A stretch of DNA of 64,000 bases from Eledone cirrhosa (taxonomy: Eukaryota): NCBI GenBank assembly GCA_964016885.1, contig OZ024745.1, positions 29,760,001 to 29,824,000 on the forward strand, written 5' to 3'. Below the pieces are notes generated by a model. The model was not told where the DNA came from, ran no database searches, and worked only from the letters and a program-made list of their open reading frames with translations. Made by a program: the position numbers and the translations under genes. Positions 1 through 30,429 of the stretch are shown here, piece by piece. Numbering within the stretch: position 1 is the first letter of the stretch; each line of letters begins with the position of its first letter.

Positions 1-245
1 AAGAACAGAGTAAGTTGAGATTAACTCTTTTGATACAATATTACTTCCTTGTCAGGAGTATAGGGACTGTGACGTCACAAGACTGTCCCTATAACCCCAC
101 TTTTCTGATATGAAATACTCTACTTATTTCTTTCAAATAATTGTGTGGTGAATAATCTTCAATGCGAACAAATATTAAGTTAGTGTTTAGTATATCATCA
201 TCATCAACATCATCATCATCGTCATCATCATCATCACCACCGCCG

Positions 246-690: not shown

Positions 691-770
691 AGCAATTTAT
701 GAACACTGCTGATGGTATCTGTAGGAAAGAAAATATGCCACTAATGAATTCACACCCTGAAAAGGGCCAG
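691..770 (+). CDS. Lipocalin exon, domain A N-terminal Cys exon
   Basis: aag|AG CAA TTT..GGC CAG|gtaatt; QFMNTADGICRKENMPLMNSHPEKGQ; phase 1 to 0. Confidence 0.7.
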
Positions 771-1008
771 GTAATTGTGTTTATATATCAACATTTTGTT
801 ATCTACAAAATATAAATATATCATAAAACACACAAATTAATTCCATATAATAAACTATATTTAATTGAAATGTTCATAGAATTTTGTGTTTCCATTTAAG
901 CCATGTTGTTGTTGGTCTCTCAGTCAAAATTCTCTTCACACATACTCCTTAGAATGAGCATAAGTACATATGTGTGTGGTACATATATAAGTACATATAT
1001 GTGTGTAT

Positions 1009-1058
<50 letters not shown>

Positions 1059-1492
1059 CCAAAGATTAGTATGGTTCATTGATTACTCAATGAATACAAT
1101 TTTACAATAGATTAGAAGCACTCAACAATAAGGTTTTCCTGGAGTTTTTAATATTATTCAAAATATTAACAAATGAAAAATATTCTCATAATCAAAATAT
1201 ATACTTTATTATATATATTTCAAAGGTACTGTGTTGTTTTTTCAGTACGTCCTCATCAGATAAAATATATGATTTGATATATGACATACCGCTAGGGTCT
1301 TGAATATTCAATTCCAGTATTGGCAGTGCTGGAATTGAATATTCAAGACCGTAGCGGTATGTCATATATCAAATCATATATTTTGTCTGATGAGGACGTA
1401 CTGAAAAAACAACACAGTACCTTTGAAATATATATAATAAAGTATATATTTTGATTATGAGAATATTTTTCATTTGTTAATATTTTGAATAA

Positions 1493-1539
<47 letters not shown>

Positions 1540-4500: not shown

Positions 4501-7155
4501 TATGTCCTTGAGCAAGACACTTTATTTCACATTGCTCCTTCTGCCAGGAGTGGCGACTGGTAGATAGTATCAACAATGGAAAGACCAAGAGAAACATTGT
4601 TTCCTTGGTCCAATTTGATGAGTTGCACCTCATTCGGTATGCGAATGAAGTCTGGGATCTTGTTGATTGTTTAAGGAAGGAGGATGCAAGGAGTTACTGA
4701 GAAGGAAAAAGAACAAGACATAATATGTTGCTGCTGTTGTCAGAACTCCATCAGTTCTGATGATACATCCTACCCATGAAATTAACTTGTAAGTGGCCGA
4801 GCATTCTCAGGAAGATTCAGGTGACGCTGTGTGTGACAAGGTTGTCCATTTCAATTACAGGTACAATTCATTTTTTCCAGCTAAGTAGACTGGAGTAACA
4901 TGAAATAAAGTGTCTTGTTCAAGGACACCATATTCCACCAGGAATCGAACTGATGGCCTTACAATTGTGAGCTAAATATCCTAAATAATAAGCCACACAC
5001 ATACACACACACACACATTTGTATAGCTAAAGAGTTGCAACCACACCACCTTCTCTCACTACCCTATAAAAACAACCCTACCCACTAATCAGTGACAATG
5101 CCACCCTCTCTCACTACCATATAAAACCTTTACAGAGTGTACTGAGTACATTTTATTATAGCACCAGCACTGCCACTTTACAGAGTGTATTGGGTGTATT
5201 TTATCATGGAATCAACACTACCACTTTACAGAGATTACTGGGTATATTTTAACATGGAATCAACACTACCACTTTACAAAGATTACTGGGTGCAATTTAT
5301 TATGACACTAGCACAACCATTTTACAGAGAGTACTGGGTACATTTTATCATGGAACCAACACTACCACTTTACAGAGAGTACTGGCACCAGCACTGCCAT
5401 TTTACTGAGTAGACTGTGTACATTTTATTATGACACCAACATTGCCACTTTACTGAGTGAACTATGTACAATTTATTATGACACCAGCACTACTACTTTA
5501 CAGAGAGTACTGCGTGTATTTTATCATGGCAACAACATTACCATTTACAGAGAGTACTGGGTACATTTTATCATGGCACCAGCACTGCCACTTTACTGAG
5601 TGGACTATGTACAGTTTATTATGGCACCAGCACTGCCACTTTACTGAGTGTAATATATGTGTATATTATCCTATAATTTAATCAATGAGATCACTAAAAG
5701 ATATATTTTATTGTGTTTCAGGAATGGTATCTGTGAGTGGGTCTTCAGAACTAAAGCCTACTTTTCCTGCCCCAAGAAAGGGAAACTTCATGAGCTAATG
5801 TTTCCACTTCCAGGAAACAACAGTAATCTAATATGTATGTCTTTAATCCTTTTTATATGAAACTGCCTGAAAATGTCCCAGGTTCAATGTTACTAAGCTG
5901 TTTATTTTAAGATGTTTTATTTTATCAAAAAGCCTTCCCTTATTAATTTTATGTAAGGGAGCTGGATTGGCAGGATTAGTGTAGCATCAGGCTAAATGTT
6001 TTACCGCATTCAGTTACAGCTCTTTATGTTCTGAGTTCAAATCCCACTGGGGTTAGTTAGCTTTGTCTTTCATCCTTATTGGGGTCAATAAAATAAAGTA
6101 CCAGTACTGGGGTTAATTTAATTAACTTTTCTCTTCCCTTCAAATTTTATGTATCATAAGAACCTTTAAATTATATTTCAAACACCACCTTTAAGTATGA
6201 ACAAGTTAGTTTATATTACTAAATCCCTCCAGATTCTTGGTTATTTTCAACATGATTTGAACATTTTAGAAAAGGTTTTCAAAATGTTTTTCAGAAACAT
6301 ACCATATATTTTTAAATATACAATATGTATATTTATATGTATATCGCTATTTCAGAGCACCAATACAAATGTTTAATTGATGCTGGGCCGGCTACTGCTC
6401 TGTATGCAAATGAGTTTTAACAGCTCATAAACATAAGCAGAATTCTATAAGAATCTAGCTTAGTTTATCTTCAGCAAAGGTAAGGAGATATGTAGTCTTG
6501 ACAACCACTTATGAGTGAGAAACGGTGGCATTGTCAATTACTTCCACCTGCTTTTGCTGAAGCTAGGTATGTGACAATCGTCACAACCTTAAAATTCATA
6601 GCAAAAGGCCTTCAAAATGTTTTTCATAAACATACCATATATGATTAAGTATACAATATGTACATTCATATGGATATCACAATTTCAGAGCACCAGTACA
6701 AATATATATATAAATTTGAGGATAACACCAGAATTAATATGACAGATTGGTTATTCTTTTCTCCCAACAGCTGAAGTTTACCTGGCTTACATTGACTCCG
6801 ATATCCATATCGTCTATGGATATCACAACATAACTGATGGGGTGGGCTCTGAAAAATCGCTGCTTTTGAATATACACTCTAGACAGAAACATATGACAGA
6901 CGAAATCTTGGAGAAAGTAAAGAACTTTCTTCCATTTCTATGCTTGAATATTTCCCAACTGAAAATAAACTCAGAATTTCCATCATTTAGTAAGTAAACT
7001 TGCAACATTTTCTTGAAATTTTTATTCATTCACCTATCTCTCCTTCTCAACATTTCTCCCTCTTTATGTATACATTTCTCTCTGTCTTTTTCACTCCCTC
7101 CTCCTCACCATATCTCTCTACCTATACATCTCTATCTCTCTCTTGTTATCTGTCA

Positions 7156-7187
<32 letters not shown>

Positions 7188-7711
7188 ATTTATCTTTCTT
7201 TCTATTTATCTTTATTTCCATTTATCTTTATTTCTATTTATCTTTATTTCTATTTATCTTTCTTTCTATTTACCTATAATAATGATAATAATGAAAATAT
7301 TGCGTACAGTGCTCAGGTGCACTACAACTCATCAAAAGGGTAATGTACAAACGTCAGTAAAATGAACAGTTCATGAGTCATGATATACACATGTGTGCAT
7401 GTGTATGGAAGGGGGACATCAGGTGTAGTTTTGGCGAATTTCGGGAAGCATGAGGGTTTTAAAGGATGCAGTGTCTCGGCAGCTATCAACTGACGCAGGC
7501 AGTTTGTTCCATGGAGGTTTTAAAGGATGCAGTGTCTCGGCAGCTATCAACTGACGCAAGCAGTTTGTTCCATGCTTCAGCAACTCTAAGTGTGAAAAAA
7601 TGTTTCCGAAAGTCATGGGAACTGTGCTGTTTTCTGACTTTGTTGGCATGTCCACGTGTGTTAGACACATGGAGATCAAAAAGGTGCTCAGGGTTGTTGT
7701 TGGCAAGATGG

Positions 7712-7760
<49 letters not shown>

Positions 7761-9001
7761 ACCATCACTACAACCATCACCACAACCATCACTTTAACAA
7801 CCATAGTATTATGTCTGAAAAATATAATTTTCATAACATAAATAACATTAATAACAACAACAATGTACATGCACACTAACAGACACACCTTGAGATTGTA
7901 TCACCTTGTAAAAAGAATATATCCAGAATTAGGTGAAGGAATCTGTTTTAACTTGTCTCACAAAGGGAGAGAAGCATTTTCAATGCCTTCAAAAAATAAA
8001 TTTAAAGAGGTGTCATCTGGCGTCTGGACTAAAGATTTAGGCAGAGATAATGACAAAGTCTATGGGACCATCTACTTGACTTTTGTGAGGAAGGATGCAG
8101 TGAAGAGACAAGCAGAAACATTATATAAAACCCCTACTCACAAACTTGTACTCCACTACATTGGGGGTACTAGTAGTCAGAGACATAGCCAATGACATCA
8201 ACCCTTGGGTCATAGTTGAACTTTTAATAATTGCCAAAGTTTGCTGTGAGGGGTGGTATGGACATGCAAGTACTTATGACTCTCCAGCATCACAAGGCCA
8301 TTTCAGAACTCTGTCCCTTTATGGGTGCAAAAGGAAAAGCAATAAGACTGACAGTGAAGAGCAAAAAGCCCAGTTATTACATTTGTGACAGCAAAAGCCA
8401 CTCGCAGGGCAGAGGAAAACAAACCTAAGGATTGATTTTTAATTTTAATTTCAACCCTTAATTATTTGTAGATTTCTCTGAGTATAGAGACATTGAGAAT
8501 TACCAAGAGGCTCCCTGTTCTTTGGAAAGTATTTCTTCTATTGAATACCTGAATCAATCAAAGGTTTGTTGTTGCTTATTCCATATGTAACATTACAATT
8601 TTTTCAGACGTATGACTGCATCATATTTCCTTCTTATTTCTGTTTTTTATTTAGATGGCAAGGTGTGGTTTGAGGGTGAATTAGTTCCTATTTCTAGCAA
8701 GCTGAGTAACCACATAGAGGATTATCATCCTACATTGGTTCAGTTACATCATCATTTTAATATTATTATCAAGTGCGATGGAATGGCAGTATCGGTAGAG
8801 AGTCGAAGAACCTGCATTGTGACATAGATATGTCCCTTTATGTTCTGAGTTTAAACCCACTGAGGTTAACTTTGCCTTTCATCCTTATGGGATCAATAAA
8901 ATAAAGTACCAGTAATGCACTGGAGTCAATTTAATAAACTTTCTTCTCCCCCAGAATCGTTGGCCTTGTGCCTAAATCGGAAAATATTATTATCAAGTAC
9001 G

Positions 9002-9051
<50 letters not shown>

Positions 9052-12000
9052 CCTCTCGCTCGCTCACTCCCTACTCGCACCAAATATAAATAAACCTGTT
9101 ACAAGGTATGAATCTCAGAATTTGTCAACTCTTATTAATGGTCAGTCCACTTCTACGAAATGTAATGTATAAATAACATTTTCTTCTTGTCTCCCCACCC
9201 TTCGATTCATTCATCCATATATCTATAATCGCCCAGAATCCAAATCCTACTTCTTAATTGCTATTCTATAATTCTGTCTGACTGTTCTAAATAATCTTCT
9301 CCTCGCTAACTAGGAGGTTAGAATTAACAAGGTTAGAATTAACAACGAATATAGTGAAGAGTTTAGCGTAAAAGTTGGTGTTCATCAGGGCTCTGTTCTT
9401 AGCCCCCTACTATTTATTATTGCCCTTCAGGCTATAACAGTGGAGTTCAAGACCGGCTGCTCATGGGAACTCCTATACGCAGATGATCTAACGCTCATAG
9501 CTGAATCAATGGCCGAACTAGAGAAGAAATTCCAAACATGGAAGCATGGCCTTTAATCAAAAGGCATTAAAATTAACCTGTCTAAGACTAAAGTTCTAGT
9601 TTGTAAGAAGGAAAATAGGGCACTGGTCCCCTCCGGGAAGTGGCCATGCTCAGAGTGTAGGGAAGGAGTAGGTAGAAACTCCATTTTATGTCCCAAATGC
9701 AAAGTATGGGTGCATAAAAGATGTGGGATCACAGATAAGCTAACTAAGAACAGATTTTATATGTGGCCGGTGCTCTGGTGCAATAAGTAGCAGCAAGTGC
9801 CCACAGAATACTAGCTCATTCCATTGCACAGATGGTTCTATAGAAATAGTGGACAGCTTCCGTTATCTGGGTGACAAAATCAGTAGTGGGGGAGGGTGCT
9901 CTGAAAGTACAGTAGCTAGAGTCAGAACTGGATGGAAAAAGTTCAGAGAGCTTATACCACTATTAGCCGCTAAAGGGTTCTCCCTAAAAATGAAAGGCAG
10001 GCTGTATGATGCCTGCATACGAACAGCAATGTTACATGGCAGTGAGAGCTGGGCATTGTGTGCAGAGGATATACGCAGACTGGAGAGGAATGAAGCTTGC
10101 ATGCTCCGCTGGATGTGTAATAGTAATATACATGAACGGCAAAGCATAAACGAACTAAGGGAAAAATTAGAAATAAGAGGGATCAGATGTTGTTTACTTG
10201 AGAGAAGGCTACGTTGGTACGGTCACGTGATGCGCATGAAAGACGACAGCTGTATAAAAAAAGTGCAGGGCAATAAAAATAGACGGTAGCCACGGAGTAG
10301 GCAGACCCAGAAAAACCTGGGACGACTTGATAAATTCCGACCTCACACACTTACACCTCTCCAAGACAATGTCACTGGACCAAGATCTTTGGCGCTACAC
10401 AGTAATAGAGAAGACCCGCCTTACCTAAGTACAAAGTAAAACCTACTACAGTCAGTAGGCACCTCTAACAAAATACACCCCGTCCCACTACCCCCACCCC
10501 ATCCACACCACCCCTTTCAATGTAAATTATGTTGGTACCACAACATCCAGTCCGAAACAAATGAGGTCGTGTAGGTGTCACGACAAAAAAAACACAGTTC
10601 ACGCTGTAATGTGGCCGTGTAGGCAACACGGTAAAAACCTCCCAGACCCACACTGTAAATGTGGTTGGTGTTAGGAAGGGCGTCCAACCGTAGAAAACCC
10701 GCCAGACAGTCCTATGCGAGCAAGACAACCACTCTTGCCTCAAGTGGGAAAACTCCCGTCCAAACCCATGCAAGCGTGGAAGATGGACGTTAAACGATGA
10801 TGATGATGATGATGATGAAGGTGGTGGTTTGGAAGTATCATTAGAGCATTTCTCAGCTCTTTAGGTTCAGAGTTCAAATCTCACCAAGGTCAACTTTGCC
10901 TTTCATTCTTCTCAGGTTGATAAAATATAGTACCAGACATGTACTGAAGTCAATGTAATTGACTTTCCTCTACCCCAAAATTACTCACCTTGTGCCTAAT
11001 CTAGAAATCATTATCATCATCATTTAATATTGGGTTTTATATCATTTAATATTGGGTTTTCTCTGCTAGCAAGAATTATCACAGACAAAATCAACTCATA
11101 ACAGGAACTACTGACCTCTCAGACAAGCCATGTGTTGCAATTCAGTTACATATATTCCTACACAGTCTACAGTGTGTTGAGTGCAGGAATATACTAAATT
11201 AAATGTTTGTTTGTTTTTTAAATACTATTCACTCATAATTTTTTACAGGTATTAGGTTAGTAAAGAAATAAAGAATGTGAAGTAGTGTATGATTTCTCTG
11301 AGGACAATCATTTGCTTTCATCCTTCCAGATTCTAGGTATATGGTATGAACTGGCTCACTCTGATTTTCTTGGCCACATTGGAAAGACAAACCAGAAGCT
11401 TACACACAGAGTACAGTTCACTGAGGACAAATATGGACAACTGGTATTTCAGTATCAACATGAGGAGTAAGTATGACATCACTAGAATATGGTACTGAGT
11501 AGATTTTATCAAAACACCAGAATTACCACTTTACAGAGTGTACTGGCTACATTTTATCATGGCACCAACATTACCACTTTACAAAGTGTACTGGCTACAT
11601 TTTATCATGGCACCAACATTACCACTTTACAGAGTGTACTGGCTACATTTTATCATGGCACCAACATTACCACTTTACAGAGTGTACTGGGTACATTTTA
11701 TCATGGCACCAACATTACCACTTTACAGAGTGTACTGGCTACATTTTATCATGGCACCAACATTACCACTTTACAGAGTGTACTGGCTACATTTTATCAT
11801 GGCACCAACATTACCACTTTACAGAGTGTACTGGGTACATTTTATCATGGCACCAACATTACCACTTTACAGAGTGTACTGGCTACATTTTATCATGGCA
11901 CCAGAATTACCGCTTTACAGAGTGTACTGGCTACATTTTATCATGGCACCAACATTAACACTTTACAGAGTGTACTGGCTACATTTTATCATGGCACCAA

Positions 12001-18000: not shown

Positions 18001-21000
18001 TGCACTGTGTGTGTTTTATCATGGCACCAGTACTACTGCTTTACAGTGTGCACTGTGTGTGTTTTATCATGGCACCAGTACTACTGCTTTACTGTGTGCA
18101 CTGCGTGTGTTTTATCATGGCACCAGTACTACTGCTTTACAGTGTGCACTGTGCGTGTTTTATCATGGCACCAGTACTACTGGTTTAGAGTGTGCACTGT
18201 GCGTGTTTTATCATGGCACCAGTACTACTGCTTTACAGTGTGCACTGTGTGTGTTTTATCATGGCACCAGTACTACTGCTTTTCAGTGTGCACTGTGTGT
18301 GTTTTATCATGGCACCAGTACTACTGGTTTACAGTGTGCACTCTGTGTGTTTTATCATGGCACCAGTACTACTGCTTTTCAGTGTGCACTGTGTGTGTTT
18401 TATCATGGCACCAGTACTACTGCTTTACAGTGTGCACTGTGTGTGTTTTATCATGGCACCAGTACTACTGGTTTACAGTGTGCACTGTGTGTGTTTTATC
18501 ATGGCACCACTACTACTGCTTTACAGTGTGCACTGCGTGTATTTTATCATGGCACCAGTACTACTGCTTTACAGTGTGCACTGTGCGTGTTTTATCATGG
18601 CACCAGTACTACTGGTTTAGAGCGTGCACTGTGCGTGTTTTATCATGGCACCAGTACTACTGCTTTACAGTGTGCACTGTGTGTGTTTTATCATGGCACC
18701 AGTACTACTGCTTTACAGTGTGCACTGTGTGTGTTTTATCATGGCACCAGTACTACTGCTTTTCAGTGTGCACTGTGTGTGTTTTATCATGGCACCAGTA
18801 CTACTGGTTTACAGTGTGCACTGTGTGTGTTTTATCATGGCACCAGTACTACTGCTTTTCAGTGTGCACTGTGTGTGTTTTATCATGGCACCAGTACTAC
18901 TGCTTTACAGTGTGCACTGTGTGTGTTTTATCATGGCACCAGTACTACTGGTTTACAGTGTGCACTGTGTGTGTTTTATCATGGCATCAGTACTACTGCT
19001 TTACAGTGTGCACTGCGTGTGTTTTATCATGGCACCAGTACTACTGCTTTACAGTGTGCACTGTGCGTGTTTTATCATGGCACCAGTACTACTGGTTTAG
19101 AGTGTGCACTGTGCGTGTTTTATCATGGCACCAGTACTACTGCTTTACAGTGTGCACTGTGTGTGTTTTATCATGGCACCAGTACTACTGCTTTACAGTG
19201 TGCACTGTGTGTGTTTTATCATGGCACCAGTACTACTGCTTTACAGTGTGCACTGTGTGTGTTTTATCATGGCACCAGTACTACTGCTTTACAGTGTGCA
19301 CTGCGTGTGTTTTATCATGGCACCTGTACTACTGCTTTACAGTGTGCACTGCATGTGTTTTATCATGGCACCAGTACTACTGCTTTACAGTGTGCACTGT
19401 GCGTGTTTTATCATGGCACCAGTACTACTGGTTTAGAGTGTGCACTGTGCGTGTTTTATCATGGCACCAGTACTACTGCTTTACAGTGTGCACTGTGTGT
19501 GTTTTATCATGGCACCAGTACTACTGCTTTACAGTGTGCACTGTGTGTGTTTTATCATGGCACCAGTACTACTGCTTTACAGTGTGCATTGAGTGTGTTT
19601 TATTGTGACACCAACATTATCACTTTCCAGAGTGTAATGGGTGCAATTCTTCATAGGACTAGCACTAGAAAAGTTGCCATGTACTCAGCAAGATTGAATA
19701 GTTCTCTTTATTTTATATTGAGAGTTATTATTAACCCCTTATCTTAATACTATACTTTTTCTCAATACAATACATTATTCTTCCTACTTTCAGAAATGAT
19801 CCAGTGATTATGTTGCTGGAGTCACTATGGTAAGGTTATGAGTTAGATTCCTGGACTAGGCAGTGTGTTATGTTCTTGAGCAAAATGCTGTATTTCACAT
19901 AGCTTTTCATGATAGAATTTTGGGCTTCTATCATTAAAACATCCAAGAAACCTCCCATGAGGAGTAACCTCATAAAAAGTAGCCTCATAAGAAGCTAGCT
20001 AAACCTGCATAGGTGTGAGCTGTAACAACATCATAACTGCCCCCCCCCCCCCCCCCATCAATGAAACTCCCAAGAAACCTCCTATAAGATGCAATCTTGA
20101 AGAAAGCTAACTAAACATACATAAGTGTGAGCTGGGGACCCTATCATTAAAACACCCAAGAAACCTCCCATGAGATGCAATCTTGTAGAAAACCAACTAA
20201 ACCTATGTAAGTAGATCAGTAGAAAAAAGTGCAATAGATCATCCAACCATCTCAAGCAGGTAGCAAAAATGGCAGTGCTTGAATTTTTTTAATTTGAACA
20301 GTGCATAGCAACCAACCCTGACATCAAAGTGTTCTGGAAATATGTATATTCAAAGCAGAGGCCTAACTCTCCAGTTGGTCCTCTTTGCAATCCCCACTCA
20401 AGCTAGATTACTGATGATCCCAAATAATGCACAGAACTCATTGCTGAATGCTATGCAGACATTTTTACTGTTGAAAACCAAAACATACCATCTCCACCAC
20501 CTCTGACATCAAATTCTATAACTATGGAATTTACACATGCTGTGATGTCACCTTAAGAATAAGTGCAATTATGCCTCTCCTGGTCTTGATGATGTTACAT
20601 ATCTGCTTCTCAAATGTGGCAGGTACCTTCTTCTGCACCAGCTATCACTCTTCTTTCAATTCTGTCTTAACAACAGTGTTTCCCCAGAGAGGTGGGAAAC
20701 TGCCAGTATCATTCCTCTGTTCAAAAAGGGTGATCGCACATCGCCTGTCAACTATCGTCCAGTCAGTCTTACTAGCTACATCGCCAAACTGATGGAATCC
20801 TGTGTCAGAGAAACACTCTGAAACTTCTGGAATTCTCACAGCTTTATCTGGCCCTCACAATTTGGATTTATCCTGAACTCCAGCTGCTGATGGTGGCTCA
20901 TGGGTGGGTGGGCGTTTATTTTGATTTTGCTGAAGCTTTTAATTCTGTGCTACAATGGGTGTGAGAGATGATCTTTATAACTGGTTGAAGTCCTTCATTC

Positions 21001-24000
21001 TCAATCGAAAAGAGGTAGTCATGGTTCAAGGTCAGCATTCTTCATCCTATGAGATGTTATCTGGTGTACTGCAGGGATCTGTCCTTGGTCCCCTTTTGTT
21101 TGTTGCATACATTAATGACATAGATGCCAACTTAAAGAATGCCATAGCGCTGAAATATGCAGATGACATGAAGTTGCACCTTGAGATAAAAAGGACAGAT
21201 CCCGAACACTATCGATCTTTCCTGCAATCAGACCTGGACACAATGCAGCAATGGAACATGGACTAGCAACTCAAGCTGACTATGAGCAAGTGTACCACCA
21301 TGCATTTTGGGAGTAAAAACCCAGCATCCACATACTCCTTCCACAATACTAATCTCAAGAAGGCTTCTTTTGAATGTGACCTCAACATTACTGTCAGCAG
21401 CGATTTGTGTTGGACAAAGGACATCTCTAAAATTGTCAAAAAGGCCAAGGGTGTCTTAGCATTACTCAGTAAGACCTTTGTCAGCTGCTCTCCAGCTATC
21501 TATTTAAAGCTGTATATAGCTACGGTGTGACCATACTTAGTATTTGCATCACTAGTCTGGAACCCCTATCTTGCTCAGAATATTGACCTCCTGGAAACTG
21601 TTCAGAGACGTGCAACCAAGCGAATACCCTCTATCAGGCATCTACCATACTCTGAATGCCTTGCTTCCCTGGGCATGGATCCATTGAAGCTCCGACATCT
21701 GGCAACTGACTTGGTAAACACCCACAAAATTATTAACCATCTTGCCAACAACAACCCTGAGCACCTTTTTGAATTTCATGTGTCTAACACATGTGGGCAT
21801 GCCTACAAAGTCAGAAAACATTTTTTCATGCTCAAAGTTGCACTAGCATTAAACCTATATCAGTTGTTAGCTGTCAGGACACTGCATCCTTCAAAACCTC
21901 CATGCTTCCCAAAATTTGCCAACACTACACCTGATATTCCGCCTCCATACACATGCACGCATGTATCTCTATGTATATCATGTCTCATACTGTTTACTTT
22001 TCTGACATTTGTACATTATTCTATGTACTATACGTGCATCTTAGATGAGTTGTAGTGCACCTGAACACTGTACACAATAATTTCATTATATTATATTATA
22101 TTATATTATATAAGAATGAACTGTATATATATATAAGTATGAACTGTAACAACACGATAGGACTGGGGCCTCTATCATTAAAACACCTGAGATGCAATCT
22201 TGTAAGTGGCCAGCTAAACCTACATTTGTGTGAGCTGTAAATTACATTTTTTTCCTTTTTTATTTCATTTCAGCATGAGCACAGAAAAATCTGGTGCATT
22301 TTTGGGGGCTGTACAACATCAATGTGATGAACACTACAATGGTGATTTTTTGGCTCAGAATGGTAAGGCAACATTTGAGGTTGTGAATTAGCAGAATTTT
22401 TTAAATATCAAATGAAATGTTTTGCAGAATTTGTGTCAGTTAACTGTGCTCTGAGTTCAAATTCTGCTGAGGTCAACTTTGCCTTTCATTATGTCAACAT
22501 TGATAAAATCCAATGCTGGAGTTGATCCTCAACCCCTGCCCTTGCTGTCTTTCTCTAGGAGTAATTGGCTGTGCTCAGACATTGAGAGGGATGGGTTTTG
22601 TCAGGTTAAAAATGCTGACGATAGACCATATGTCATGATGGCATATACATAATTGTGTATGTGTGTGTGTATATATATATATATACACACACATATATAT
22701 ATATGTATGTAATGTATATACATATATATCATCAGCATCATCATCACCGTTTTACGTCCGTTCTTCCACGCTAGCATGGATTAGACGGGTTGTCCTGTTG
22801 TGGGCAGTGTTCAGTTGGCTGACATTGTCTTGCCCATACAGGAACTGATTCTGGCTTGATTTCTACAGCTGGATGCCCTTCCTAACACCAACCTCATTTA
22901 CAGTGAGTGCTGGGTGCTTTCTTTTTTTCCATGGCGCCTACATGTCCACTTTACAGTGTGGGCTGGGTGCTTTTTTGCCGAGGCACCTCCATGGCCACTT
23001 TGCAGGGTGGAGTGTGGGGGGGGGGGGGCATATTGTCTATATGCTTCAGTTTCGGCTTGTTCCTGTGGGAGGTCGGGTCTTCTGTATCACTGCGTGACAC
23101 CAGAGGTCACGGTCATGTGTCATTGCCCTTGAGAGGTGCAATTGGGCAAGGTCGGCCTTTATCATCTCATCCCAGGTCTTCTTGGGTCTCCCCACTCTGC
23201 GGCTTCCATTGACTTCTCGTGCTCTGCACCGTTTTATGCAGCTGTCATCCTTCATACGCATTACATGTCCATACCAACGTAACCTCCTCTCCTGCACACA
23301 GCATTTGATTCCTTTGATGCTCAGTCGCTCTCTCAATTCGTTTATACTTTGCCATTCGCGTATATTACTATTACATATCCATCGGAGCATGCAAGCTGCG
23401 TTTCTTTCCTAATCTACACAAGTCTTTTACAGACAGCGCCCAGGTCTCACTACCATGTAACATTGCTGTATACACACATCATACAGTCTGCCTTTCATTT
23501 TGAGGGGAAAGCCTTTTGCAGCTAACAGTGGCAGTAGCTCCCTGAACTTCTTCCATCCCGTTCTTACCCTAGTTATTGTACCTTCCGAACACCCACCTCT
23601 GCTGCTAATTCGGTCACCTAGGTAGCAGAAGCTGTCTACTGTTTCTACAGAGCCCTCCCAGAGTTTGGTGGTGCTTGTTTCCTGTGGTCGTTTGCTGCTT
23701 GCTGTCCCAGCGCAGCTGCTACATGTGAAGCCTACATTCTTAGTTAAACTTCCTGAGATCCCACTACATCTCTTGTGTACCCATTGTTTGCATTTGGGGC
23801 AGAGGATGGAGTTCCTACCTACACCTTTCCTACATACTGAGCAAGGCCATTTCCCTGAGGGGATCTGGGTTCTGTTTTCTCGTCTACTTACAAGAACCTT
23901 AGTTTTTGTCAGGTTGACTTTGAGACCCTTTCTTTCTAGTCCCTGCTTCTATGTTTGGAATTTCTTCTCTAGTTCCACCATGGATTCAGTGAGATCATCC

Positions 24001-24054
24001 ACATATAGGAGTTCCCATGGACATCCGGTCTTAAACTCCTCCGTTATTGCCTGC

Positions 24055-24090
<36 letters not shown>

Positions 24091-27000
24091 CAGTTACCAA
24101 GGTGATAGTACAAAAATTTACCATTGTTCGGTTTCTCTTATTAGTAACATAATAAGAAAAAGTTTTTTCATTTAACACATTCCGCTGAGACTGCTAACAT
24201 AGTGTATACTCATAATAGAGCAATTACACATTGAATAATCCTAGACCCTGGGGTTCCTGCAAGTGCACTGCACCAGCAGATGCAGTTTGCATCTGCTAGT
24301 TAACAGTAGCAGGATGAGGGAAATTTGCCTGCCAAAATTTCTGCAGTGCAGTGCTTCATCAGCAGATGTTTTTAAAATTCAAGAGAAATTAAGGTATCCC
24401 AGTGTCCATCTCCGTGCATGTGTGAAATTACTACTGTCTCAGCCAAAGTTGTTGGCAGCAAGTAGTGATGTCACGGATGGAAGAACGACCTTTCATTCAC
24501 CTAGGTGCTGTGTTGGGAGGAAAATTGAAATTAGGTATATTTTTTTTTAAATTGCCATTAGATCTCAACCATTCGGAAAATATATATATTTCATTTTTGT
24601 ATTTGTTTTGCAAGATTCTTGATGTGAAATTGAGTTGAAACAGATATTGTTATATTTGTGCCAATAAAAACACACTGCGTTTTATACATCTTATATTTTC
24701 CTTATTTATTTCCTCGGTGCTTAGTAAGTTCAAAGATTGAGCTTCACACATGTTTGTTTATATTTTCAGAAACTGTTTGATTTAGCTCCTTATTTAGATG
24801 GTAAGATATTGGCAGGGGTCCCTTAAATTAATAGTGAGAGTACTCAGCTGGTATCTGGGAGACATGAAGTTTGTTTCTTCGTAGCAGCCGTTGGCAACAT
24901 TTTTTCCATCTCTAATTGTCATACCTGATTTTTATAAGCTATTTCATAGCAACTGACTGTAATTGCAGTAATTTTCTGTTGAAGAGGGAGATGTGTGTGT
25001 GTCGACTTGTCTCGTTCATTGTCTTCCTTTATTTCTTTCTTCCTATCACTTCTATGTGCCAACACACTTCTCCTTATCCTCCTCCTCTCTTAATCCATTC
25101 TACATTTCATCTGCCTGTCATCCATCTTGTAGCTTTGTGCTTCTCTTTACTGACCACTAGCCACTGATTTCTGTCCTTTGAGGTATTTTACCCTATGCAG
25201 TCATTGACTGTTATAACAGCTATTCTTGCATTAAGTTTTCTCATTTTTCTATGAATTTCAAATACACTCACGCTTCGTCTCAATCTTTATATACTTATAT
25301 ATTTACACACACACACGCACATAAAATATATAATATTCTCTATTTGCAGTTATTGTGAAGATCCTGTACACAGATTATGAAAATCTTACCATTGTTTTTG
25401 CCTGTAGTCAGGTATTCACCAATGGTGAATGTGTGAAACCTATGGTCCACATACTTGGTAGAAAACCTCAACTGACTGTACACATACTTAATCTAACTGA
25501 ACCGGTCCTTCGTAAAGCTTGTATAGCCCCAGATAATCTCCTGATTATTGAGGACGTCTGTAAGTATTGTACTGCTACCTTCCTTTTCTTGTTGCTGCTG
25601 ATGGTGGTAGTAGTGGTGATGATGATGGTGATTGTGATGACAATGGTAATGATGGGGGTAATGAGGATGATGATATGCATATCAGGGAGCTACTACCACT
25701 GCCAGCTACAGAAGGTTTTTCCTTCAAATTTAAAGGCAGATTGTATGGCATTTGTGTATGAACTGTAATGTTTCATGGAAGTGAGACCTGGGCACTGTGT
25801 GCAGAGGACCTATGAAGACTGGAAAGAAATAATTGTTTCTACTTTTGGCACAATGCCAACAATTACCTAGTACATTACTGGTACTTTATTTTATCGACCC
25901 CGTAAGGATGAAAGGCAAAGTTAACCTCGGCGGGATTTGAACTCAGATCATAAAGGGACGTAACTCTATGCTTCAAAGCATGGCGTCCAACTCTCTACTG
26001 ATACTGCCAATCCACCAAGAAATAATGGATGTGTAATAGTAGTGTGCATGAATGGTGAAGTCTCAATGAACTGAAACTAAGCATAGAGGAGTCAGATCCA
26101 GTGTGCAAGAGAAGAGATTGAGGTGGTATTGACATGTGATATGTATGAAGGATGAAGCAGAGCACTTAAAGTTGACAGAAACTATGGAAGAGGAAGACCT
26201 AGAAAAACTTATGAAGTGATAAAAACTGACCTTGCACAATTAAATCTCAAAAAGGAGATGACCGGATTGAGACTCCTGGTGTCAAGCTGCACTGCACAAG
26301 ACTCGTCTTCCCATGTGTATAGGATGAAAGCATGTAGGGGACACTAGTCTGCACCAACCTTCTCTTTACTCTATCCCAGTTTTAATATCCACCCAATACT
26401 AACTAAATATCCCATGCTTTCATCCATGTCAAACTTGCTTACTTGTTCCCTCCCAAACCTTCACTCCTCACATGGGATACTGACCACCAAGAGGCCGAGG
26501 GGTTTGTATCCTGTTTACGTATGGTCATATCAAGTGCAGATGAGTTGTGTCTTTTGAGAGAAATTGAAGGGTCCTCCTCATTCCTTGTTTGGCAAACATT
26601 CTATGGCTGGATGCCCTTCCTAACACCAACCACATTACAGCTTGTACTGAATGCTTTTATGATGTAAATCAACAGCACTAAGGAAACTGTCATGTCCTTG
26701 ACACAACTAAAGGGTCCTCCCAACTCTCTGTCCGGCAAGCTTTCTATGGCTGGATGCTCTTCCTATCAACAACCACTTTACAGTGTGTACTGGGTGTGTT
26801 TATCATACAGATCACCAACACTAGACAGGTTGGTGTGTCTTTGACACAACTAAACTATCCTCTCAACCTTTTTAGACATTGTATCTTCAGCAGGGTGCCC
26901 TTTCTGTCACCAACCCCTCTTACAGACTGTACCAGGTGCATTTTTGTGGCTTCATCGCTAGAGAAATTGTTGGCCTTAGACTTAACTGTAGAGCCCTCTC

Positions 27001-27160
27001 AGCTCTGGGGAGGTGGGGCAATTGGGAATGGAGATAGGTATAAGTGTATGAGTAAAGCGTGGAGGTGGCAAATTAGTGTATGGGGATATAGTGGTGTGAG
27101 GGCTGGGGTCAATTTGGTTGTGTGGGGTGGGCTGATGGAGAGATAGGTAAAGGGTAAAGG

Positions 27161-27197
<37 letters not shown>

Positions 27198-29590
27198 GTA
27201 TATAAATAATTGGCAAATGAGAATCTCCAGCAAATGTTTGTCACACAACATTCATATAGACTCTAGTATTTTCAACCCAGTAATGGTTGAGTGAATGTCA
27301 TCGATGAGAAATTAATGAATCTAGAAACAGCTGTCTGGCATTCTCAATGCTACTGAGATATCTGTAACATGTTCACAGAGCAAAAGATATAAAGGTGTTC
27401 CATGCAGTGTGGGACATATATACAGTTCTTTGAGCACATTTGCATAAATTTAGTAGAAAGGATCCCCCCCAACTCTCTGTCCGGCAAGCTTTCTATGGCT
27501 GGATGTTCTTCCTATCAACAACCACTTTACAGTGTGTACTGGGTGTGTATTATAAGTCATGAAAGAAGAGCTTTATTTGAGAAAAAGTTGGCATGAATAA
27601 TCTTGAGACTCTTGTTGCTGCATCTTTTCAATGGATCAGTTGTTAGTACCAATGACTGATTTAATGCCACATTTGAACTGTTGATCTGCGCAAATCAGAT
27701 GATCTTTATCTATTTTTGACATTGAGCTAGTTATGGCAGACTTCAGAGATTTTATAGCGTTATGGGGGCATTGTTTGGCTTTCCTCTAGACTGCACCCCA
27801 TACATAGTAGTCTAACAGATTCAGTTCTGGAGAGCTAAGAGGCCATATGTTTGGAGTGACGTGATTGTAGAGATTGTAACTCATCCACTCTTGGGTTGTT
27901 TTGGCTTTATGAGATGGTGCTGTCTTATTAATAGGTGTACAGTCATCCTTTGCTCATGCTCTCTCTCCAAGGCTTCACAACCCTTCCCAACCCTGCCTTA
28001 TAGTCAGTAGCATTGTCTCTTAAGCCTTGAAGAAAGAAGGCATGATATCTCTCTCATTGCTCACGACTCCCAGAACCATCAGAGTTCCCAGAAACGTTGT
28101 GCATGACCATTGGAATATCTTTAGGGTTTCTGCATAACCATCTATTATTCCTTCACTTGACTTTTTGGTCCTGATCAAAGTTTTCAGAAAAAACCAAAGG
28201 ATTCCAGGCACTTGATATTTTAAGTTGCTCAACAAGCACTTTGAAAAGATCAAATGGTTGTCTTTTGTCTTTGCAGACATGAATTGGCCATTCTGCATCA
28301 CATATGTCTTGTATCAAAGGTCCTTGTACACATTTCTTCTGATAGTGTGCCTCGAAACTTTGATCTACTTAGCAATGGTGCTAATTGTTAGGACCCTTAG
28401 CAGGCATTTTAGGTTTGGCTACTGCTGTAGAATCCCTGACAGCAGTTTCCAGCTCTTTGCAAACTTTGATAACAAATGACCACACCACTTTCAGGAAGCG
28501 AGCAATCTCTAAATCACTATGTTCTGTCTTCAAAGCAACGATTACAGTGTGCCTTTCAATTGCTGAGATAGCTTGATGTCTGTCATCATATATCTGAAAA
28601 GAAATGATAATTAAAACAAGTTTTTAAAAAGTTAGAGCTATTAAGATGTGTCCTCAAAGAACTGAGCAACCCTGTATAATATATATATATGATAATATTG
28701 GGGTTTTCCAATATAGATCCTGGTAAAGATGAGAGAAGCTCTATGCTATCCAGTTTCCTTGATACAGCAGTAATTTAAAATCGGCTGAGGGTGTTCCCAG
28801 ATGTCATTGATTCTGTTGTAGACTGTTAAGCTACAGATTGCAAAGCTCAAAATTTATAAATGGAGAGAGAATATCCAAATTATACTTAATACATAATTTT
28901 AATTCTACATGTTTCAATGTATAGTGACGGGCCATACCACGATATATACGAGGTATCTGTCCGTCGCTCTACATCAGAAATTTATATAATGTTATAAGTT
29001 TCAAGAGTAATACATACAAGAGATAACTTCATACCATAGATGAGGTTCATACCATATTAATTAATATATTGCTAATTACAATATATATTTATAGTGTGTG
29101 TTTTGTTTATTATTTTGCAGCTACAAAGGCAGTGAGTCACTCATGTAAGACGATGAGGAGTAGGGAGTGGAGGAAGAGAGGAGGAGGAAGACATGGTGGT
29201 GGCAGAGGAATGCAGGGAGATGAGGGAAAGCAGGAGCAGGAAGAAGAAGCCAGGGAGCAACAGGAAGAGGAAGAGGAGGAAGCAAGAGAAGAGCTGGAGA
29301 AAGCAGAAGAAGAAACAAAGGATAGAGAGGAAGAAGTCAATGAGGAACAAGAAGAGGTAGATGAGGAAGTTAAAGAGAAAGAAGAAGAGGGGGAGGAGGA
29401 ACTGAAGGAGAAGGGGGAGGAAAAGGCAGAAGAAGAAGATGAGACAGAAGATGATAAGGTAGAGGAAGAACAGGAGAAAGAAGATGAAGAGGCAGAGGAA
29501 GATCAGGAGAGGGAGGAGGAAAAGGCTGAAGAAGAGCAGGAGAGGGAGGAGGAAGAAGAAGAGGAAGCGAAAGATAAGAATGAAGATTAA
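691..29590 (+). CDS. Tandem multi-domain lipocalin (ApoD/purpurin-like) with Glu-rich C-terminal tail; 5'-partial, 9 exons in window
   Basis: Exons 691-770, 2602-2711, 5722-5834, 6771-6989, 8472-8563, 11330-11466, 22274-22362, 25350-25559 and 29121-29590 have AG/GT boundaries and join in one frame (about 505 aa). Two GxW motifs (LDGIWYN, ILGIWYE), a TDY motif (ILYTDYEN) and SCR3-like motifs (NIHSR, HILGR). Confidence 0.85.
1151..1495. repeat. Near-perfect 345-bp palindrome
   Basis: Arms 1151-1322 and 1324-1495 with few mismatches; adjacent to (TA)n. Confidence 0.95.
1690..2060 (-). mobile_element. Degenerate RTE-like LINE 3' fragment with (GAA)n tail
   Basis: RPRGRSRAR-like C-terminal remnant followed by a GAA microsatellite. 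Confidence 0.55.
2602..2711 (+). CDS. Lipocalin exon, domain A GxW exon
   Basis: tag|LDGIWYNIASNTHMMNGIIMNFTTSHDFLLIDACLP(R)|gtaaaa; phase 0 to 2. Confidence 0.8.
3125..3250. repeat. Degenerate hairpin or MITE
   Basis: AAGTCTGTTTGTTTAGAAA..GCAAGTGGGTTAGATTG / CAATCTAACTCACTTGT..TTTCTATACAAACAAACGGACTT. Confidence 0.7.
5129..5652. repeat. Degenerate 48-bp tandem array of the same family
   Basis: Repeated TTTACAGAGAGTACTGGGTACATTTTATCATGG...CCAC units. Confidence 0.9.
5722..5834 (+). CDS. Lipocalin exon, domain A third exon
   Basis: tttcag|(R)NGICEWVFRTKAYFSCPKKGKLHELMFPLPGNNSNLI|gtatgt; phase 2 to 1. Confidence 0.75.
6771..6989 (+). CDS. Lipocalin exon, domain A SCR2/SCR3 exon
   Basis: ccaacag|EVYLAYIDSDIHIVYGYHNITDG...LNIHSRQKHMTDEILEKV...CLNISQLKINSEFPSF|gtaagt; phase 1 to 1. 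Confidence 0.8.
7275..7710 (-). mobile_element. 3' end of the same CR1-like LINE
   Basis: SNTRGHANKVRKQHS..RKHFFTLRVAEAWNKL; 3' UTR matches 21900-22085; internal 60-bp duplication. Confidence 0.85.
7880..8420 (-). mobile_element. Degenerate LINE RT C-terminal fragment (CR1/Jockey group)
   Basis: Remnants resembling a LINE RT C-terminus, ending next to a simple-repeat tract. Confidence 0.45.
8472..8563 (+). CDS. Lipocalin exon, domain B N-terminal Cys exon
   Basis: tttgtag|FSEYRDIENYQEAPCSLESISSIEYLNQSK|gtttgt; phase 1 to 0. Confidence 0.75.
9315..10817 (+). mobile_element. RTE-type LINE, 5'-truncated (RT C-terminal part, 3' UTR, (GAT)n tail)
   Basis: [35 protein letters not shown] with stops and frameshifts; close match to 37390-39500. 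Confidence 0.92.
11330..11466 (+). CDS. Lipocalin exon, domain B GxW exon
   Basis: ttccag|ILGIWYELAHSDFLGHIGKTNQKLTHRVQFTEDKYGQLVFQYQHE|gtaagt; phase 0 to 2. Confidence 0.85.
11490..12300. repeat. Related 48-bp tandem array, about 17 copies
   Basis: Unit TTTATCATGGCACCAACATTACCACTTTACAGAGTGTACTGGCTACAT. Confidence 0.97.
12400..19640. repeat. 48-bp tandem satellite, about 150 copies, in lipocalin intron
   Basis: Unit TTTATCATGGCACCAGTACTACTGCTTTACAGTGTGCACTGTGTGTGT with a few 46- and 47-bp variants. Confidence 0.98.
20240..22100 (+). mobile_element. CR1/L2-group LINE remnant
   Basis: SGVLQGSVLGPLLF, KYADD, WNPY..DLLETVQRRATKRIP with stops; TTA-rich tail. Confidence 0.88.
22274..22362 (+). 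CDS. Lipocalin exon, domain B third exon
   Basis: tttcag|(D)MSTEKSGAFLGAVQHQCDEHYNGDFLAQN|gtaagg; phase 2 to 1. Confidence 0.75.
22735..24056 (-). mobile_element. RTE-type LINE 3' fragment
   Basis: RT C-terminus ([19 protein letters not shown]), 3' UTR and (GAT)n tail. Confidence 0.9.
25350..25559 (+). CDS. Lipocalin exon, domain B TDY/SCR3 exon
   Basis: ttgcag|IVKILYTDYENLTIVFACSQVFTNGECVKPMVHILGRKPQL...RKACIAPDNLLIIEDV|gtaagt; phase 1 to 1. Confidence 0.9.
25680..26325 (+). mobile_element. Degenerate RTE LINE fragment interrupted by a SINE (about 25830-26017)
   Basis: RELLPL..KGRLY..HGSETW..GRPRKT remnants. Confidence 0.8.
27294..27342 (+). ncRNA. Degenerate hammerhead motif
   Basis: AATGTCA-TCGATGA-...-GAAA-CAGCTG-TC-TGGCATT; core reads TCGATGA instead of CTGATGA. 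Confidence 0.5.
27424..28675 (-). mobile_element. Degenerate Tc1/mariner transposon
   Basis: APSHKAKTTQEW..NIWPLSSPELNLLDYYVWG catalytic remnant; terminus CAGGGTTGCTCAGTTCTTTGAG next to TA, with a partial inverted match at 27424. Confidence 0.8.
29121..29590 (+). CDS. Lipocalin terminal exon: basic/Gly patch followed by Glu-rich tail
   Basis: ttttgcag|TKAVSHSCKTMRSREWRKRGGGRHGGGRGMQGDEGKQEQEEE...KDKNED*; phase matches the upstream exon; AATAAA near 30403. Confidence 0.75.
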
Positions 29591-29702: not shown

Positions 29703-30037
29703 ATATAATATAAAACGAAAAATCAGTGATGCATCTGAACTCAATTTATTGTGTGTTACAATTGTTTCGCCGGCGGACAGCTCGAGACGCCATCATTGTG
29801 TGGATCTCTCTGACTCTGTATCTGCAGGTTCGACTGACACGTCTAATGATTTCGGAGCATATTCTTTCACTGTGAAAGAATTTGCTCCGAAATCATTAGA
29901 CGTGTCAGTCGAACCTGCAGATACAGAGTCAGAGAGATCCACACAATGATGGCGTCTCGAGCTGTCCGCCGGCGAAACAATTGTAACACAATATATTGAG
30001 TTCAGATGCATCACTGATTTTTCGTTTCATATTATAT
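29703..30037. repeat. Near-perfect palindrome of about 335 bp
   Basis: Arms mirror about position 29871; mirrored ORFs 29749(+) and 29793(-). Confidence 0.95.
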
Positions 30038-30429
30038 ATATATATATGTATAGATAAAAATATATAACATTGAAATGATAGGTGGAGATAGGAGAGGGGA
30101 TGTGGGGGTGGCGAGTGGACAGGTGGAGGTGGGGAGACAAACTTTGACATAGAGTGTGGAGTGGGGGATATTAGACATGTGAGGTAGAGGTTATAGGACA
30201 TGTTGGGTAGAAGATATAGAACTGGTGGGGATAGATATAACATTGGTGAGGTGAATATAGAGCTGGTAGGAATGGATATAGAAGATGAGAGGGTGGATGT
30301 AACATTGGTGAGGTGAATATAGAACTGCTGGGGTGGATATAGAAGAGGGAAGGTGGGATAGACTAAGAATGTAAAAAAGTTGTCTAAAAATCTAGAACGA
30401 CCAATAAAAAAAATAAATTATTCTAAAAC

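What the first reader, a model, noticed from the sequence alone, without database searches (positions are those of the whole stretch)
691..29590. Tandem multi-domain lipocalin built from a repeated symmetric 4-exon cassette
Seen: nine exons, most missed by the ORF track, splice in frame into two lipocalin domains. Each domain uses the same exon and phase pattern (Cys exon 1-0, GxW exon 0-2, third exon 2-1, TDY/SCR3 exon 1-1). The first exon appears to start in phase 1, so either a signal-peptide exon or further domains lie upstream. Domain A has lost the TDY motif (YIDSD) and is very divergent from domain B. Known: most lipocalins have one barrel, and tandem forms such as pufferfish PSTBP are uncommon. 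Inference: a carrier of several ligands (pigment, retinoid, odorant or toxin) made by cassette duplication. Its function is unknown.
Basis: partly seen in the sequence, partly recalled or inferred. Interest (0 to 1): 0.75.

Follow-up and report, generated by a model that had tools for sequence, protein, structure and literature searches.

The report
Four-barrel secreted octopus lipocalin
This octopod gene encodes four small-molecule-binding barrels in a row plus a long acidic tail, and likely makes a secreted carrier of fats or pigments belonging to an old, unstudied mollusc family that resembles the multi-barrel lipocalins already known from caterpillar guts.

Summary
The nine exons are real, but they are the back half of a larger gene. 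Nine more coding exons lie upstream (one straddles base 1). All 18 splice into one 864-residue frame: signal peptide, FOUR lipocalin domains and a ~134-residue Glu/Asp tail. Single-chain orthologues in Octopus sinensis, O. vulgaris, O. bimaculoides and Argonauta (727-735 aa, 47-55% identity, all 'uncharacterized') support one gene; they stop where the acidic tail starts. Predicted models of the O. sinensis orthologue match RBP4/ApoD-type barrels for domains 2, 3 and 4; domain 1 has motif and profile support only. Tandem lipocalins are not rare: insect polycalins are published, and the search found relatives with 2-30 domains in molluscs, an annelid, echinoderms and a hemichordate. The four barrels are not a cephalopod duplication (AU p=0.003): domain 2 groups with the third-from-last barrel of snail and mussel proteins. 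The cassette is the ordinary lipocalin 0/2/1 intron pattern closed by phase-1 introns, and is not strictly regular. No spliced RNA and no ligand evidence were obtained. Verdict: a soluble polycalin-like variant from an apparently undescribed molluscan family; moderate interest.

The parts
1..9 (+). 3' end of coding exon 9 (45 nt, phase 1-1, G000:C5:29759965-29760009): Cys plus predicted linker helix between domains 2 and 3. Exons 1-8 lie upstream of the window at G000:C5 29739922-29740047 (ATG, signal peptide), 29749152-29749279, 29750143-29750216 (GC donor), 29751276-29751485 (domain 1), 29752899-29752963, 29753515-29753633, 29755854-29755963, 29758227-29758436 (domain 2)
   Evidence: exon 9 is 73% identical to O. 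sinensis; helix 349-363 in model
691..770 (+). Exon 10 (1-0): N-terminal Cys segment of domain 3
   Evidence: 52% to P0079
2602..2711 (+). Exon 11 (0-2): GxW (GIWY) exon of domain 3
5722..5822 (+). Exon 12 (2-1): middle strands of domain 3
   Evidence: 35% to P0079
6771..6989 (+). Exon 13 (1-1): last strands, SCR3 Arg and helix of domain 3; YIDSD instead of TDY; lacks the Cys pair that is invariant in 19 of 19 aligned relatives
   Evidence: (C478, C486 invariant); DNA held by three runs
8472..8563 (+). Exon 14 (1-0): linker and N-terminal Cys of domain 4
   Evidence: 45%
11330..11466 (+). Exon 15 (0-2): GxW (GIWY) exon of domain 4
22274..22362 (+). Exon 16 (2-1): middle strands of domain 4
25350..25559 (+). 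Exon 17 (1-1): TDY, Cys pair, SCR3 Arg and helix of domain 4
   Evidence: PF00061 E=7.8e-4, 20.1 bits, below the 23-bit cut-off
29121..29590 (+). Exon 18 (1-stop): C-terminal Cys peptide shared with orthologues, a Gly/Arg stretch, then a Glu-rich tail (68 E and 10 D of 156 residues) absent from the four named orthologues
   Evidence: DNA matched without gaps by one contig in each of 3 of 3 runs

Best explanation
One 18-exon gene encodes a signal peptide, four tandem lipocalin-type domains and an acidic tail, and its product is likely a secreted, heavily glycosylated soluble carrier whose diverged barrels would each hold a different small hydrophobic ligand (fatty acid, sterol, retinoid, carotenoid or bilin). 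Shown: exon chain, open frame, single-chain orthologues, no hydrophobic C-terminal anchor, 17 N-glycosylation sequons, profile match of all four domains. Predicted: barrel folds (on the O. sinensis orthologue) and secretion. Inferred: ligand binding; different specificities (domains are too diverged for 3 of 6 pairs to align above shuffles, yet each is kept across octopods); that the ~98 kDa chain prolongs retention in body fluid; and that the tail is a disordered polyanion adding solubility or cation binding. The array is inherited from a molluscan poly-lipocalin and was made by old in-gene duplication of the lipocalin exon set between phase-1 introns; the tail is a later extension past the ancestral stop.
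For: Gene model. Orthologues as single chains: (XP_029650806.1, CAI9716937.1, XP_052821518.1, GAB1598998.1). Non-circular profile from 215 non-octopod domains scores the four domains 65, 48, 43, 72 bits against at most 4.4 for 200 shuffles. AlphaFold2 on P0079: pLDDT 70.8, four strand-rich units each ending in a helix; domain 4 vs RBP4 Z 20.6, rmsd 2.3, 157 aligned, ApoD Z 19.8, Foldseek top hit ApoD E=1.3e-9; domain 2 vs RBP4 Z 17.7, rmsd 3.2, 167 aligned; domain 3 vs lipocalin 12 Z 12.7, rmsd 3.7, 152 aligned. The closest solved relatives (ApoD, RBP4, crustacyanin, sandercyanin) bind small hydrophobic ligands (established knowledge). History: AU test rejects the 12 octopod domains as one clade, p=0.003; domain 2 groups 98/95 with third-from-last barrels of gastropods, a bivalve and an unnamed transcript protein; position-class profiles pick the matching class for D1, D2 and D4 in 4 of 4 species. 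Tail frame: 0 stops against 5 and 14 in the other frames; open in 2-46 of 2000 shuffles.
Against: No RNA evidence for any junction or for the tail in this species: the only runs are DNA. Orthologue chains are gene predictions. Folds are of a 55%-identical orthologue, not of this protein. Domain 1 has only six called strands and low confidence at residues 84-102 and was not fold-searched alone. Domain 2 lacks both GxW and TDY, and domain 3 here lacks TDY and a Cys pair, so some barrels may not bind anything. Identity to any solved lipocalin is about 20% or less, and top structural hits are tied, so no ligand can be named. Domain 3's positional class is ambiguous (expected class best in 2 of 4 species), and most deep tree nodes are unresolved.
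Confidence: 0.6

Rival explanations
1. A gut or digestive-gland scavenger, working like insect polycalin: secreted into the lumen to capture dietary pigments or lipophilic toxins from prey rather than circulating in blood.
For: Same architecture as polycalin, described as midgut-specific and chlorophyllide-binding (PMC11762215, passages); crustacyanin is among the near structural hits.
Against: Lepidopteran profile scores domains 2 and 3 at about 1 bit; insect domains sit in a separate clade; no hydrophobic C-terminus like that of 4 of the 5 insect proteins printed; no expression data.
Confidence: 0.18
2. A structural or adhesive extracellular scaffold (mucus, egg coat, matrix): the barrels are degenerate spacers or protein-binding modules and the acidic tail binds calcium.
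For: Motif loss in domains 2 and 3; relatives fused to Ig, FN3, LDLa or thyroglobulin-1 domains; a lipocalin-domain shell matrix protein is reported in oysters (PMC10543319, passages; not shown to be this family).
Against: The motif-less domain 2 is the best conserved domain between octopods (66% vs 45-60%) and keeps a full predicted barrel; the shell-building Argonauta lacks the tail.
Confidence: 0.13
3. A salivary or venom accessory protein that sequesters prey mediators, as tick and bug lipocalins do, or a toxin carrier like PSTBP.
For: Weak Triabin match for domain 1 (E=0.0019, below cut-off); amine-binding protein among the tied hits for domain 2 (Z 17.0).
Against: Single copy and conserved with non-venomous snails and mussels; the cephalopod venom preprint mentions lipocalin once, for an FABP marker gene.
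Confidence: 0.06
4. A cluster of separate lipocalin genes, or an untranslated or misassembled acidic tail.
For: No spliced reads in this species; introns up to 10.8 kb.
Against: Only one signal-peptide exon; domains 1-3 end in phase-1 donors rather than stops; four species have one-chain models; tail DNA is matched without gaps.
Confidence: 0.03

Closest known systems
Octopod orthologues: LOC115224175 (O. sinensis XP_029650806.1), LOC106871838 (O. bimaculoides XP_052821518.1), CAI9716937.1 (O. vulgaris), GAB1598998.1 (Argonauta hians)
   Same: Collinear over all four domains, 47-55% identity; already in databases as uncharacterized proteins.
   Different: Pfam recognises one clear lipocalin stretch in them, so the four-barrel layout is not annotated there. 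They end just after the last Cys peptide; this gene adds ~134 acidic residues and has lost a Cys pair in domain 3.
Insect polycalin (pentadecacalin, chlorophyllide A binding protein, 'multidomain lipocalin')
   Same: Many lipocalin-like domains in one secretory chain; the term was coined for such proteins (PMC10145054, passages).
   Different: Separate clade of domains; 15 domains reported for Plutella; hydrophobic C-terminus (its reading as a GPI signal is recalled); here four domains, soluble, acidic end.
Uncharacterized poly-lipocalins of gastropods, bivalves, Owenia, echinoderms and Saccoglossus (e.g. XP_052091175.1, XP_067662350.1, CAH1786129.1, XP_030853519.1)
   Same: Tandem ApoD-like barrels, 2-30 per chain by my profile; the molluscan ones share position-specific barrels with this gene.
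   Different: Variable N-terminal repeat numbers; some carry Ig, FN3, LDLa or thyroglobulin-1 domains; the deuterostome arrays group apart.
ApoD / RBP4 / crustacyanin / sandercyanin
   Same: Best sequence and structure matches per domain; 0/2/1 intron phases as in other lipocalin genes (0,2,1,1,1 for ApoM/Ptgds, PMC3184775, passage; ApoD's pattern recalled).
   Different: Single-barrel proteins; about 20% identity or less.
Pufferfish PSTBP
   Same: Tandem lipocalin-like domains from duplication and fusion (bioRxiv 10.1101/2020.04.19.048728, passages).
   Different: Built from TBT-bp/AGP-like domains in fish; an analogy only, no sequence comparison was made.

Membership tests
Lipocalin | Eight-stranded antiparallel barrel followed by a helix (domains 2, 3, 4) | tested here: met
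   Predicted on orthologue P0079; Z 17.7 (D2), 12.7 (D3), 20.6 (D4)
Lipocalin | Eight-stranded barrel in domain 1 | tested here: inconclusive
   Six strands plus helix called, pLDDT under 50 at 55-64 and 84-102; profile match 65 bits; not fold-searched alone
Lipocalin | SCR1 GxW motif | tested here: met
   Present in 3 of 4 domains (D1, D3, D4); absent from D2
Lipocalin (kernel type) | SCR2 TDY motif in every domain | tested here: not met
   2 of 4 domains (D1, D4); D2 LYSD, D3 YIDSD, i.e. outlier-type domains
Lipocalin | SCR3 Arg before the helix | tested here: met
   Invariant in 4 of 4 exons (R37 of alignment A1)
Lipocalin | Signal peptide | tested here: met
   ATG exon with hydrophobic N-terminus (Kyte-Doolittle 9-mer mean 3.0), matching orthologue N-termini; no dedicated predictor was run
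Lipocalin | Binds a small hydrophobic ligand in the calyx | not testable with these tools
   No assay or structure
Polycalin (descriptive sense) | Multiple lipocalin-like domains in one chain | tested here: met
   Four domains; definition from PMC10145054 passage
Polycalin (lepidopteran orthogroup) | Domains descend from the insect array | tested here: not met
   Insect domains lie in a separate supported clade; lepidopteran profile gives 27, 0.8, 0.8, 9.7 bits
Polycalin (lepidopteran orthogroup) | Hydrophobic C-terminal anchor signal | tested here: not met
   C-terminus is acidic here and polar in the orthologues; hydrophobic in P0011, P0016, P0037, P0013 but not P0007
Polycalin (lepidopteran orthogroup) | Midgut expression and chlorophyllide A binding | not testable with these tools
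   No RNA run available
PSTBP / TBT-bp | Domains homologous to TBT-bp (AGP-like); binds TTX, STX or TBT | not tested
   No PSTBP sequence compared; AGP ranks below RBP4/ApoD for D2 (Z 13.5 vs 17.0)

The most novel reading that the evidence does not exclude
Molluscs carry an unrecognised, pre-cephalopod family of large soluble poly-lipocalins (4-15 barrels; 30 in an annelid relative) whose C-terminal barrels are position-specific orthologues. It is their general multi-ligand carrier of lipids and pigments, a functional counterpart of serum albumin. The octopod four-barrel protein is its compact form, and this lineage has recently gained a polyacidic tail and remodelled barrel 3 for a new ligand or compartment.
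Probability: 0.2. Interest if true: 0.7.

Novelty: new variant of a known kind. Interest (0 to 1): 0.42.

Why it matters
The gene itself has database orthologues and multi-barrel lipocalins are known from insects, so the architecture is not a surprise. What is useful is that Pfam misses most of these barrels (the genome-wide PF00061 search did not find this gene at all), hiding a family of 4-15-barrel molluscan proteins with conserved barrel positions. The four-barrel octopod form is small enough to express domain by domain, which would test whether tandem barrels divide up ligands, and could identify how cephalopods move lipids, retinoids or pigments outside cells. The new acidic tail and loss of a conserved disulfide give a natural comparison within octopods.

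Tried and rejected
RNA support: no RNA holder listed; the three runs cover introns, so they are DNA, come from one sample and study, may be the assembly's own source, and give no splice evidence; junction 6989-8472-11330 was not examined with reads. Pfam on single exons: 1 of 9 window exons and 1 of 7 upstream exons gave a lipocalin-clan hit, both below cut-off. Word-indexed search with exon 17 found nothing among 7 candidates although orthologues exist, so blanks from that tool are weak; the same caution applies to finding no squid or cuttlefish orthologue. The ESM Atlas gave no result. A hydrophobic stretch at about L004:9650-9723 was first taken for the signal-peptide exon and rejected (no in-frame ATG, microsatellite-like; the true exon was found and matched). 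A 20-nt 1-0 mini-exon near -11389 was rejected (not needed for frame, absent from orthologues). The alternative donor 5 nt earlier in exon 2 was rejected (breaks phase). Further lipocalin domains in 364 kb around the gene: none, exactly four TDY-type exons. L001 (C25), the only PF00061 hit in the genome, looks like an FABP exon (read by eye). P0058 is a likely false hit and P0012 and P0024 have no Pfam match. Trees used subsets: 122, 60 and 46 of 231 domains; P0005 and P0008 were left out of the position classes, P0005 after seeing the first tree. The three trees disagree on the sisters of D1, D3 and D4. A planned motif census and rate comparison was not run (machine lost). Earlier scan findings: none relevant. 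No complex prediction was attempted, as no binding partner is claimed.
Full report
Observation. The window is G000:C5:29760001-29824000. The last one is not barrel sequence: after a short Cys-containing peptide it runs through a Gly/Arg stretch into a Glu-rich tail.

The gene is twice as long. In 200 kb fetched upstream I found a further GxW exon and TDY exon, the rest of two more exon sets, and an ATG exon with a hydrophobic N-terminus about 20 kb before the window. Orthologues showed 15 missing residues, which turned out to be a 45-nt phase 1-1 exon ending at window base 9. The 18 exons give 2595 nt, 864 residues and one stop; 16 introns are GT-AG and one GC-AG. The upstream neighbour is a RABL3-like gene (one exon matches PDB 6vih at E=1.5e-7; its 3' end near -32.4 kb was read by eye), which bounds the gene. 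A profile search over 364 kb found exactly four TDY-type exons. The mature chain is 97.8 kDa, pI 4.7, with 17 N-glycosylation sequons and 20 Cys.

One gene. A profile of the four 1-1 exons against 1.84 billion representatives returned 67 proteins at E<=0.001, 35 of them with two or more matched stretches (summed scores favour repeats). The second hit is a 727-aa Argonauta protein; it led to 735-aa proteins of Octopus sinensis, O. vulgaris and O. bimaculoides. They align over all 18 exons, 54-55% identical for Octopus and 47% for Argonauta, so the window comes from another octopod. All are labelled uncharacterized or hypothetical and are predictions. With the O. sinensis protein as query, 11 of 11 matches in G000 fall on this locus in order. 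No spliced RNA was available.

Four barrels. A profile built only from 215 non-octopod domains scores the four domains 65, 48, 43 and 72 bits (best of 200 shuffles 4.4); a profile from 14 deuterostome domains gives 35, 25, 29 and 50. The spliced protein could not be folded, so the O. sinensis orthologue stood in: pLDDT 70.8, pTM 0.56, with eight main strands and a helix in domains 2-4 and six confident strands and a helix in domain 1. Domain 4 matches RBP4 (Z 20.6, rmsd 2.3, 157 aligned), sandercyanin and ApoD (Z 19.8), all tied. A second model of domains 2-3 (pLDDT 79.8, pTM 0.74) gives RBP4 for domain 2 (Z 17.7, rmsd 3.2, 167 aligned) and one lipocalin row for domain 3 (Z 12.7). GxW is present in domains 1, 3, 4; TDY in 1 and 4; the SCR3 Arg in all four. 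Pfam finds one clear lipocalin stretch per orthologue, and the genome-wide PF00061 search missed the gene.

The cassette. Each domain has introns of phase 0, 2, 1 inside and phase 1 behind it. This is the usual lipocalin pattern (0,2,1,1,1 is given for ApoM/Ptgds in a passage of PMC3184775; that ApoD has 0,2,1 is recalled, Sanchez et al. 2003 not read).

Age and family. Named hits include Owenia (5687 aa), Haliotis, Nucella, Batillaria, Gigantopelta, Pomacea, Mytilus, Potamilus, Tegillarca, a sea urchin, a crinoid, Saccoglossus, butterflies, moths and locusts (30 proteins looked up). 17 of 20 scanned carry lipocalin Pfam hits, several with Ig, FN3, LDLa or thyroglobulin-1 domains. My iterated profile counts 30 domains in Owenia, 15 in H. 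asinina, 5 in Mytilus. Within this gene only 3 of 6 domain pairs align above shuffles (D1-D4, D2-D4 clearly, D1-D2 marginally). In a 46-domain IQ-TREE analysis each octopod domain is its own clade, an AU test rejects grouping all of them (p=0.003), domain 2 joins the third-from-last barrels of gastropods, Mytilus and an unnamed 4-domain protein (98/95), domain 3 joins that protein's third domain (99/96), domain 1 joins Mytilus domain 1 (93/81) and domain 4 is unresolved; insect and deuterostome domains fall in a separate clade (100/97). Position-class profiles agree for domains 1, 2 and 4 in 4 of 4 species and are ambiguous for domain 3. Quicker trees differ on several sisters. So the array most likely predates cephalopods and arose independently of insect polycalin.

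What is special to this species. The orthologues stop a few residues after the last Cys peptide; here the frame runs on for ~134 residues with net charge about -57. The frame has no stop against 5 and 14 in the others and stays open in only 2-46 of 2000 shuffles, though a GA-rich 33-bp repeat contributes. Contigs from 3 of 3 DNA runs match the exon without gaps. Two unnamed relatives also end acidic (32% and 35% D+E in the last 60 residues). Domain 3 has lost the two Cys that are invariant in all 19 aligned relatives and has the longest terminal branch of the four (0.69 vs 0.14-0.43).

Mechanism. The most likely reading is a secreted soluble carrier with four diverged calyces for small hydrophobic ligands. 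This follows from the fold, the nearest solved relatives, the signal peptide and the lack of an anchor; ligands, tissue and the role of the tail are inferred only. Rivals are a gut scavenger like polycalin, a matrix scaffold, a salivary sequestering protein, or separate genes (see fields).

Literature. [quoted passage not shown] PSTBP2 has tandem TBT-bp-like domains (10.1101/2020.04.19.048728, passages). The family review PMC8420045 covers chordates and does not contain 'polycalin' or 'mollus' (passages and term counts). An unspecified lipocalin is enriched in non-mated octopus optic glands (10.1101/340984, one passage; supplement not seen) and a lipocalin domain occurs in oyster shell matrix (PMC10543319, passages). 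I found no description of the octopod gene or of molluscan poly-lipocalins in searches (0 papers each) or in the listings of 23, 31, 47 and 91 (titles and abstract starts only); most subscription journals are not covered, and Mauchamp 2006 was not read.

Verdict. Real, well-supported gene; a new variant of a known kind (soluble, polycalin-like, molluscan lineage, with a lineage-specific acidic tail).

Noticed in passing
window 11552-19603: 8-kb satellite of 168 copies of a 48-bp unit (93% matches) inside the intron between exons 15 and 16; shorter arrays of similar 46-49-bp units at 5128-5650 and 42625-45219.
   Followed up: no
window 29703-30037: Near-perfect palindrome (124-nt arms, 98%, 1-nt loop, plus outer 52-nt arms) between the stop codon and the first AATAAA at 30403; would form a long hairpin in the 3' UTR, a possible RNA-editing substrate (inference).
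   Followed up: partly
window 1200-1446: Another near-perfect palindrome (arms of at least 123 nt, 97%, 1-nt loop) in an intron; a related AT-rich element is seen by eye in L003 near 8190-8420.
   Followed up: no
L006:7506-7597 to L005:7592: RABL3-like gene immediately upstream on the same strand (further exons read by eye).
   Followed up: partly
L002:143-216: Exon 3 uses a GC donor; it is short and poorly conserved (30-42%), where domain 1's model is weakest.
   Followed up: partly
window 9330-10430, 20300-21900, 23100-24040, 37827-39545, 57793-59455: Reverse-transcriptase-like LINE fragments on both strands, recognised by eye from translations.
   Followed up: no
L002:6050-7850 and L002:8550-9240: An AT-rich tandem array of about 41-bp period and a G/T-rich short-period array in introns of domain 2 (by eye).
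   Followed up: no
window 25496 and 29259: Two A>G differences in contigs of 2 of 3 runs, both changing a residue (T/A and Q/R); likely alleles.
   Followed up: partly
window 56131-56550 and 63832 to beyond the window end: Open frames of 140 and 328 codons not obviously repeat-derived; the first has no Pfam match, the second was not tested.
   Followed up: partly
P0001 (CAH1786129.1): Owenia fusiformis protein of 5687 aa with 30 lipocalin-like domains by my profile, twice the published polycalin count; a gene prediction.
   Followed up: partly
L001 (G000:C25:4601498-4601680): FABP-like exon, the only PF00061 match in the genome.
   Followed up: no
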